From Shigella phage sb4: 64,000 nt of DNA. Made by a program: the position numbers and the translations under genes. Location of the stretch: sequence record PQ666542. The stretch is one strand, 5' to 3'. The notes below the pieces were generated by a model that had not been told where the DNA came from, did not search any database, and saw only the letters and a list, made by a program, of their open reading frames with translations. The stretch's first letter is position 1. Every line of letters begins with the position of its first letter. Positions 192 through 1,516 of the stretch are shown here, in pieces.

Positions 192-1516
192 TTGATTTCC
201 TCTAAATCTTTAGTGTATTCTGTAACTACATCAGTAGTTATCCTATATTCGTTTTCTTCTTTTTTGGCTTTAGCTTCTTCAGCAAGTTTTTTTGCTTCGT
301 CAGAAGTCATATGAAAAATATTCATTCCAACTAGTTTATCAACATAAGAAGAATACATATCAATTTTTGAAAGTTCTTCGGTCAGTTCTTTGCGAGTTTT
401 ACCTTGTACAACAATTTCACCTGAAATTACTTTCTTAATGAAATGTGCCTTGGCAAAAGCTAAACGAAATGCTGATTCAGTTTCTTTGATTTTGTTATCA
501 ATTCGTTTTTGGACATAAGTTTTACGAACTTCAACGAAGTCTTTGATTAAATCAACTACATTATCGTAAACTTGCAGCTTTCCTTTCTCATTAATAACGG
601 TGATATTCTGGGAACGACGCACAATCATCCCGAAGTCTTTCATATTTTTTGCTTGACGTTCTTCTTCGTTATCACTCAAAGAGTATTCTTTACAGAATTT
701 AACTTTAAAGCCAAAACCATGCTCACCGAAAGCATCATCCAACGTAATGAAACCTTTATCTTCAAGCGGGTCTAAGATTTTACTCACGTAAGTTTCACGA
801 TCATACTTATATGGAATCTCAGTGATATTCATTTGAGTTCGTGGAGTAAACTTGTATGTTCCACGAATTTCATATTGACCGTCAATTTCAACGACTTCAC
901 CACGAAATTCTGGGAATTCTACCTTAGGTTTAGTTACTTTCTTTCCTTGAAGAGCTTGCAGTACAGCTTTCTTGACAGAAGAAACGCTATGAGGAAGAAT
1001 GTAAGTTGCATAACCAGTTGCAATACCGGAAACACCGTTAAGAAGAACAGTAGGAATAATAGGCAAATAGAAAGCAGGCGGAATGTGTTATTTATCTTGA
1101 TGTACCGGAGAATATTCAGTATATTTATATACGTTATATAAATTTTTACTTACACGAGAAAAAATATAACGACTTGCCGCTGCTTTTTGAACGGTACGAG
1201 AACCAAAGTTTCCTTGACCATCTAACAAAGGAAAGTTATTATTCCAAGTATTAGCCATCAAAGCCCCAGCATCTTGTGCAGAGTTTTCACCATGATGATA
1301 TCCAAGGTCTGCTACACCACCTGCAATAGATGCGAGTTTGTGAAACTTATCTTTATTTCCTCGTGCCAAATCAAGAGCTCGAGCAATAACAAATCGTTGA
1401 ACTGGCTTAAATCCATCAATCATATTTGGGATAGCACGATTTTCAACCGTGTACATAGCATAAGCCAATGCTTCATTATCAATGATACTTTTTAAATCGC
1501 GATTATTCAGATGCAT
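188..1516 (-). CDS. 52: DNA topoisomerase II medium subunit gp52; frame interrupted by in-frame TAA at 1088-1090
   Basis: track ORFs 1088..1516 and 188..1066 are in the same frame; 443 codons total matches T4 gp52 (442 aa); GyrA-like PVQRF motif. Confidence 0.9.

What the first reader, a model, noticed from the sequence alone, without database searches (positions are those of the whole stretch)
1088..1090. In-frame TAA inside topoisomerase II gene 52
Track ORFs 1088..1516 and 188..1066 are in the same frame, separated only by TAA at 1088-1090 plus 7 open codons (...EYSPVHQDK*HIPPAFYLPIIPTVLL...). The combined 443 codons match T4 gp52.
Basis: partly seen in the sequence, partly recalled or inferred. 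Interest (0 to 1): 0.55.

Follow-up and report, generated by a model that had tools for sequence, protein, structure and literature searches.

The report
Sequence-error stop codon in gene 52
The stop codon inside the phage topoisomerase gene is really in the sequence, but it is one of 36 premature stops scattered at random through this 64-kb stretch, so it most likely reflects poor sequence quality and not biology.

Summary
Gene 52 (T4-type topoisomerase II medium subunit; window 1516..188, minus strand) is a gap-free 443-codon frame broken by one TAA at 1088-1090. All seven aligned relatives, including T4, have GAA (Glu) there, and no other phage sequence searched carries the TAA.

The stop is not special. 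Against the annotation of the collinear phage pSs-1, 32 of 129 genes in the window are broken, by 36 in-frame stops (31 TAA, 5 TGA) and 6 frameshift indels. Broken genes include DNA polymerase gp43, clamp-loader gp44 and gp62, gp47 and endonuclease VII. A plaque-forming lytic phage could not carry all of these.

The window's private substitutions are rich in transversions (ts/tv 0.84 against 6.85 in pSs-1). The excess class (A<->T, C>A, G>T) gives 177 missense, 44 synonymous and 21 nonsense changes, which is the pattern of unselected change. Placing that excess at random predicts 21 +/- 4 stops, 73% TAA; 25 were observed.

TAA remains the main genuine stop codon, the window has no tRNA gene, and the flanks match wild type. 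That rules out recoding, suppression by a tRNA in the window, and programmed readthrough. The public sibling records sb1, sb2 and ECp13 show the same problem.

Verdict: a sequencing or assembly artefact (or DNA damage). Low interest.

The parts
188..1516 (-). Gene 52 homolog (T4-type DNA topoisomerase II medium, GyrA-like subunit), 442 codons plus terminal stop, interrupted at codon 143
   Evidence: gap-free 1329-nt alignment with T4, pSs-1, sb1-3, ECp13, ESh16; PF00521 on both halves; same neighbours as in relatives: ac/52.1 upstream, motA.1 downstream
1088..1090 (-). In-frame TAA, codon 143; relatives have GAA (Glu). The single-base change is G>T on the coding strand, which is C>A at window 1090 on the + strand
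   Evidence: Private to the window among 8 aligned genomes; no exact match in IMG/VR; no identical 61-mer in 523 phage records
1088..1516 (-). N-terminal fragment, 142 aa, the only product expected if the stop were real; matches PF00521 profile 1-104
188..1087 (-). Remaining 299 codons (plus terminal stop) of gene 52 with no start signal of their own. The next in-frame start-like codons are TTG at codon 151 with no Shine-Dalgarno sequence upstream, and ATG at codon 229
32043..32045 (-). Same kind of event: TAA (from GAA) at codon 178 of DNA polymerase gp43
   Evidence: direct translation ...DEVPQ*ILDRV...
33815..33817 (-). Same kind of event: TAA (from AAA) at codon 245 of clamp-loader gp44
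33454..33456 (-). Same kind of event: TGA (from GGA) at codon 45 of clamp-loader gp62; a second stop (TAA from TCA) lies at 33160-33162
38953..38955 (-). Same kind of event: TAA (from AAA) at codon 59 of gp47
47102..47104 (-). Same kind of event: TAA (from CAA) at codon 67 of endonuclease VII (gp49)
7249..8001 (-). Same kind of event: two TAA stops in rIIA (codon 6 at 7999-8001; codon 256 at 7249-7251)
15134..15136 (-). Same kind of event: TAA (from AAA) at codon 358 of dda helicase

Best explanation
The TAA in gene 52 is an unselected single-base error (GAA->TAA; C>A on the + strand at window 1090) in a low-accuracy genome sequence of a Tequatrovirus close to Shigella phage pSs-1. The window carries a genome-wide excess of A<->T, C>A and G>T substitutions, roughly one per 200 bases, plus a few 1-2 base indels. 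They fall without regard to codon position or gene importance, and in this AT-rich genome they often turn GAA, AAA, CAA, TTA or TCA into TAA. Gene 52 is one of 32 genes hit. Shown: the error class is unselected, spread across the window, and sufficient in number to explain the stops. Inferred: the real phage has an intact 442-aa gp52 with Glu at position 143, and the errors arose during sequencing, consensus calling or assembly, or from damaged template DNA. Which of these causes applies cannot be told from the sequence.
For: (1): against the 129 pSs-1 CDS, 32 window genes are broken, by 36 in-frame stops (31 TAA, 5 TGA, 0 TAG) and 6 frameshift indels. Searches confirm stops in gp43 and gp44 by direct translation. 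(2): the window has 24-25 private nonsense changes in 50 kb; pSs-1 has 1 with four genomes compared and 0 with five. Window private ts/tv is 0.84 against 6.85 for pSs-1. The A<->T/C>A/G>T class splits 177 missense, 44 synonymous, 21 nonsense, whereas private transitions are mostly synonymous (163 syn, 78 mis), as expected for real divergence. (3): 224 excess transversions placed at random on pSs-1 give 21.2 +/- 4.3 nonsense codons, 73% TAA, matching the 25 observed. (4): the excess is spread evenly, 14-39 per 5 kb. (5): in gene 52 the window has 18 private changes against 7 relatives, most at codon positions 1 or 2. From the translation and T4 gp52 as I recall it, these include W->L, C->F, R->C and W->R. 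T4's 23 private changes are nearly all at third positions. (6): the TAA is found in no other sequence; relatives have GAA. (7): the sibling records sb1 (29-30 private nonsense; split rIIA, dda, gp41, gp43, gp46, nrdD), sb2 (5; split gp43) and ECp13 (8; split rIIA) show the same problem. The window begins at the same base as pSs-1 and sb1-3. (8) Replisome proteins are required for T4 replication (PMC3016281). That gp43, gp44 and gp62 are classical essential DNA-negative genes is my own knowledge.
Against: No reads, coverage or quality values are available, so error is inferred from pattern and not seen directly. The source record and its sequencing platform could not be identified. The sequence context of the errors does not point to one known error mechanism. 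A gene 52 nonsense mutant taken alone would be viable in T4, because the topoisomerase is not absolutely essential (PMC4396842), so this particular stop cannot be called impossible on its own.
Confidence: 0.92

Rival explanations
1. A real ochre mutation in gene 52. The phage lacks its own topoisomerase II medium subunit, makes only a 142-aa fragment, and replicates with a DNA-delay phenotype using host gyrase.
For: T4 topoisomerase (genes 39/52/60) is not absolutely essential, and topoisomerase mutants grow if host gyrase is available (PMC4396842). The partner gene 39/60 is intact in the window.
Against: The change belongs to the error class that produces 21 of the 24 private nonsense changes counted in the five-genome comparison. 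Gene 52 also carries about a dozen further private non-synonymous changes of that class. No relative has the stop. pSs-1 has no private nonsense change in 50 kb in the five-genome comparison.
Confidence: 0.03
2. The sequence faithfully reports a truly hypermutated or damaged, non-viable DNA population, for example a heavily mutagenised or oxidised stock or a consensus of defective genomes. On this reading the stops exist in DNA but not in a replicating lineage.
For: G>T/C>A is the classical signature of oxidised guanine (my own knowledge), and this class is in excess here and in sb1. The pattern is unselected.
Against: A<->T changes are equally abundant and are not explained by guanine oxidation. 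Random damage differs between molecules and should not reach a consensus at normal coverage. For the question asked, this reading gives the same answer as the best explanation: the stop is not functional biology.
Confidence: 0.04
3. Programmed recoding: stop-codon readthrough, a gene-60-style bypass, TAA reassigned to an amino acid, or a naturally split gene 52 encoding two polypeptides.
For: The neighbouring T4 topoisomerase gene 60 is the classic case of translational bypass, and T4 splits its large subunit between genes 39 and 60 (my own knowledge). The frame is open on both sides of the TAA.
Against: The stop is not conserved in any relative. The 61 nt around it differ from sb1 only at the stop base, so no dedicated signal has evolved. 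TAA is still the commonest genuine stop, at 57 of 98 gene ends. The in-frame stops replace E, K, Q, L, S, Y, G, W and R codons, and some are TGA. The window has no tRNA gene. No Shine-Dalgarno sequence or start codon follows the stop, and the stop lies inside one Pfam domain.
Confidence: 0.01

Closest known systems
T4 gene 52 / gp52, DNA topoisomerase II medium subunit (GyrA-like, Pfam PF00521), as annotated in T4 NC_000866.4 and Shigella phage pSs-1 NC_025829.1
   Same: Same length (442 codons), gap-free alignment, same flanking genes, same Pfam domain.
   Different: One internal TAA at codon 143 and about a dozen private non-synonymous changes that no relative shares.
Error-laden public Tequatrovirus assemblies: Shigella phages sb1 and sb2 (PQ666539, PQ666540) and Escherichia phage ECp13 (PP274704)
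   Same: Collinear with pSs-1. sb1 and sb2 also start at the same base as the window. All show excess transversions and many split genes; gene 52 is annotated as three CDS in sb1 and is truncated in sb2.
   Different: The stops lie at different positions in each record. The window has more A<->T changes, while sb1 is dominated by C>A and G>T.
T4 gene 52 nonsense (DNA-delay) laboratory mutants
   Same: A premature stop in gene 52 would give a topoisomerase-null, gyrase-dependent phage (PMC4396842).
   Different: Laboratory mutants carry one designed lesion in a clean background. Here 31 other genes are also broken, including gp43, gp44 and gp62.
T4 gene 60 translational bypass, and the 39/60 split of the large subunit
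   Same: Same enzyme complex; an interruption within a topoisomerase reading frame.
   Different: No conserved take-off and landing arrangement, no gap and no conservation. In this phage the 39/60 gene is fused and intact at 605 aa.

Membership tests
T4 gp52-type topoisomerase II medium subunit (type IIA topoisomerase subunit A) | PF00521 DNA_topoisoIV domain | tested here: met
   N-terminal fragment E=4e-29 (profile 1-104); C-terminal fragment E=1e-37 (profile 129-412)
T4 gp52-type topoisomerase II medium subunit (type IIA topoisomerase subunit A) | Full-length collinearity with T4 gene 52 and the same genomic neighbours | tested here: met
   1329-nt gap-free alignment, 67 differences from T4; conserved neighbours
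T4 gp52-type topoisomerase II medium subunit (type IIA topoisomerase subunit A) | Uninterrupted reading frame encoding the whole subunit | tested here: not met
   TAA at codon 143. Attributed to sequence error
Programmed stop-codon readthrough or translational bypass | The interrupting stop is conserved among related genomes | tested here: not met
   7 relatives have GAA; no IMG/VR match for the TAA version; 5 for GAA; none of 523 phage records identical
Programmed stop-codon readthrough or translational bypass | Dedicated cis signals around the stop that are absent from uninterrupted homologs | tested here: not met
   the 61-nt flank differs from sb1 only at the stop base
Stop-codon reassignment (TAA read as sense) | The reassigned codon is avoided at genuine gene ends | tested here: not met
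   TAA ends 57 of 98 genes in the window (61 of 98 in pSs-1)
Stop-codon reassignment (TAA read as sense) | In-frame stops correspond to one amino acid, and a cognate suppressor tRNA is encoded | tested here: not met
   the stops replace E, K, Q, L, S, Y, G, W and R codons and include TGA; no tRNA in the window (the rest of the genome was not available)
Naturally split gene (two separately translated subunits, like T4 39/60) | Homologs that end at this point, with a downstream ORF that has its own start codon and ribosome-binding site | tested here: not met
   single 442-aa CDS in relatives; no SD or ATG after the stop; the break lies inside one domain
Sequencing or assembly error | Private substitutions show no purifying selection (random codon positions; nonsense count as expected by chance) | tested here: met
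Sequencing or assembly error | Essential genes of an obligately lytic phage are also disrupted | tested here: met
   gp43, gp44, gp62 (twice), gp47, gp49
Sequencing or assembly error | Low read support or low base quality at the variant positions | not testable with these tools
   No reads or quality values available; source record not identified

The most novel reading that the evidence does not exclude
The gene 52 ochre codon is a true allele hidden among the errors. This would be a naturally isolated T4-like Shigella/E. coli phage that has lost its own topoisomerase medium subunit and depends on host gyrase, giving a DNA-delay phenotype.
Probability: 0.03. Interest if true: 0.25.

Novelty: not a real feature. 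Interest (0 to 1): 0.03.

Why it matters
The stop has no biological significance. Its practical value is as a quality warning. This window, and at least three public relatives (sb1, sb2, ECp13), contain many false premature stops and missense changes. Any apparent pseudogene, split gene or recoding site in these genomes should be discounted until it is resequenced. Automatic annotation of such records adds fragmented proteins to databases, for example the three "DNA topoisomerase medium subunit" CDS in sb1.

Tried and rejected
- **Recoding or readthrough.** Rejected: the stop is not conserved, the flanks are wild type, TAA is still the main terminator, and the window has no tRNA gene.
- **Split gene with restart.** Rejected: no SD or start codon follows the stop, and the break lies inside one Pfam domain.
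- **Tracing the source record.** The exact 142-aa fragment is not in the protein collection.
- **Literature on phages sb1-sb3 and their sequencing platform.** Nothing relevant was found.
- **T4 genome review (PMC150520).** Not held. PMC4396842 and PMC3016281 were used instead.
- **Inferring the error mechanism from sequence context.** There is a weak bias (G>T preceded by A 62% of the time; the reverse-complement pattern for C>A) and a per-base rate at G/C about 1.4 times that at A/T. This is not diagnostic of a platform.
- **Nanopore and modified phage DNA.** A preprint reports that modified phage DNA degrades nanopore basecalling (10.64898/2026.07.08.737226). It does not cover T4-like phages, so I treat this only as a candidate cause.

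Full report
**1. The observation**

Reading the minus strand of window 1-1800 and translating 188-1516 gives a single 443-codon frame. It has one internal stop...EYSPVHQDK*HIPPAFYLPIIPTVLL..., and the TAA lies at window 1088-1090.

**2. Identity of the gene**

The first 1.8 kb matches over 500 Tequatrovirus (T4-like) genomes, where it is annotated as the DNA topoisomerase II medium subunit flanked by ac and motA.1. The gene aligns with T4 gene 52 and six closer relatives over 1329 nt with no gaps. The two halves match consecutive parts of one Pfam domain, PF00521: profile 1-104 and 129-412. The stop therefore lies inside a domain and not at a boundary. Every aligned relative has GAA (Glu) at codon 143. 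The window's change is G>T on the coding strand, which is C>A at window 1090 on the + strand.

**3. First warning signs**

- No record in a 50,697-genome phage collection is more than about 97.8% identical to the window, even over this very conserved gene.
- The window begins at the same base as Shigella phages pSs-1, sb1, sb2 and sb3.
- Within gene 52 the window has 18 differences shared by none of seven relatives. Most are at codon positions 1 or 2. Comparing the translation with T4 gp52 as I recall it, they include W->L, C->F, R->C and W->R.
- T4's 23 private differences fall almost entirely at third positions.
- sb1 and sb2 have their own private G>T changes in gene 52. The gene is annotated as three CDS in sb1 and is truncated in sb2.

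**4. Test across the whole window**

The window is collinear with pSs-1: 97.1% identity over 50 kb, with 1,436 mismatches and 11 gap openings.

- **Gene audit.** I aligned each of the 129 pSs-1 CDS in the first 63.8 kb to the window and read the window in the reference frame. 32 genes are broken, by 36 in-frame stop codons (31 TAA, 5 TGA, 0 TAG) and 6 frameshifting indels.
- **Genes affected.** They include gp43 DNA polymerase, gp44, gp62 (twice), gp47, gp49 endonuclease VII, dda, rIIA (twice), nrdD, denB and modA.
- **Direct confirmation.** Translation shows the gp43 stop at codon 178 and the gp44 stop at codon 245.
- **Why this matters.** T4 replisome proteins are required for replication (PMC3016281). 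That gp43, gp44 and gp62 are classical essential DNA-negative genes is my own knowledge. An obligately lytic phage could not form plaques with this set of lesions.

**5. Nature of the substitutions**

I compared private substitutions in four- and five-genome alignments: window, pSs-1, sb1, sb2, and then ECp13.

| Measure (five-genome alignment, 50 kb) | Window | pSs-1 |
|---|---|---|
| Private substitutions | 560 | 322 |
| Transition/transversion ratio | 0.84 | 6.85 |
| Synonymous | 211 | 242 |
| Missense | 284 | 61 |
| Nonsense | 24 | 0 |

- The window's A<->T, C>A and G>T class is 177 missense, 44 synonymous and 21 nonsense. Its private transitions are mainly synonymous (163 against 78), as expected for real divergence.
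- The excess transversions are spread evenly, 14-39 per 5 kb, and are roughly symmetric between strands.
- I placed the excess (224 substitutions of those four classes) at random on the pSs-1 sequence. This gives 21.2 +/- 4.3 nonsense codons, 73% of them TAA, with codon positions hit equally. 25 were observed in the same 50 kb.
- The stops therefore occur at the rate expected with no selection at all. From the same density, I estimate a gene the size of gene 52 has roughly an even chance of being hit.

**6. Biological alternatives**

- **TAA reassignment** is excluded. TAA still ends 57 of 98 genes. The in-frame stops replace codons for nine different amino acids, and some are TGA. The window has no tRNA gene.
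- **Programmed readthrough or bypass** is excluded. The stop is absent from all seven aligned relatives, from IMG/VR (no match for the TAA 23-mer, five for the GAA version) and from 523 phage records. The 61-nt surroundings differ from sb1 only at the stop base.
- **A natural split into two subunits** is excluded. No relative ends there, no ribosome-binding site or start codon follows, and the break lies within one domain.
- **A real ochre mutant** cannot be excluded for this gene taken alone. T4 topoisomerase is not absolutely essential, and topoisomerase mutants grow with host gyrase (PMC4396842). But the change belongs to the error class, the gene carries many other private non-synonymous changes, and pSs-1 shows no private nonsense change in the five-genome comparison. 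I put this at about 3%.

**7. Cause of the errors**

This cannot be settled from the sequence. Candidates are low-coverage or unpolished consensus calling, oxidative template damage (which gives G>T/C>A but does not explain A<->T), and long-read basecalling on glucosyl-hydroxymethylcytosine DNA. Modified phage DNA is reported to degrade nanopore basecalling, though not in T4-like phages specifically (10.64898/2026.07.08.737226). The source record was not found, and no paper on the sibling phages turned up.

**8. Verdict**

It is one of 36 randomly placed premature stops in a low-accuracy genome sequence and is not a real biological feature. The real phage almost certainly encodes an ordinary 442-aa gp52 with Glu143. 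Interest is very low, and resequencing would settle it.

Noticed in passing
window 1-63800 (stop coordinates for the named genes): 32 of 129 genes carry premature stops or frameshifts, including gp43 (32043-32045), gp44 (33815-33817), gp62 (33454-33456, 33160-33162), gp47 (38953-38955), gp49 (47102-47104), rIIA, dda, denB, modA and nrdD. Any other finding from this window that rests on a stop codon, a split gene or an odd amino-acid change is suspect.
   Followed up: yes
window 16517-17264 (srd), 17980-18603 region (modB), 19664-20149 region, 43773-43880 region, 45016-46832 (nrdD), 56389-57123 region: Six 1-2 base indels shift the frame relative to pSs-1. Indels are far rarer than substitutions here (11 gap openings against 1,436 mismatches in 50 kb).
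   Followed up: partly
window 10990-10992 and 12907-12909: Two genuine TAA stop codons of pSs-1 genes read AAA and CAA in the window. These stop-loss changes are the mirror image of the same error process.
   Followed up: partly
window 8285-10102 (minus strand): The large topoisomerase subunit is a single intact 605-aa gene (a fused 39/60, which I recall is the T2/T6 arrangement). It has no separate gene 60 and so no bypass element. This phage's topoisomerase would have two subunits, not T4's three.
   Followed up: partly
window 3223-3289 and 54571-54637; also 29693-29782 vs 56002-56091 and 20756-20798 vs 59956-59997: Short dispersed direct repeats; the first pair is 67 bp at 98.5% identity. 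Read on the minus strand, the 67-bp copy looks like a T4 early promoter followed by a GGAGG ribosome-binding site and ATG, so these are probably repeated promoter/leader cassettes.
   Followed up: no
public records PQ666539.1 (sb1; L010), PQ666540.1 (sb2; L009), PP274704.1 (ECp13; L017): These deposited genomes show the same excess of transversions and private nonsense changes (29-30, 5 and 8 in 50 kb). Annotated split genes include gp43, gp41, dda, gp46, nrdD and rIIA in sb1, gp43 in sb2, and rIIA in ECp13. sb1 is dominated by C>A and G>T.
   Followed up: partly
window 1 (start of window): The window's first base coincides with base 1 of pSs-1, sb1, sb2 and sb3, and coordinates stay within a few bases for over 40 kb. 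This suggests the source genome was oriented to, or assembled against, pSs-1.
   Followed up: no
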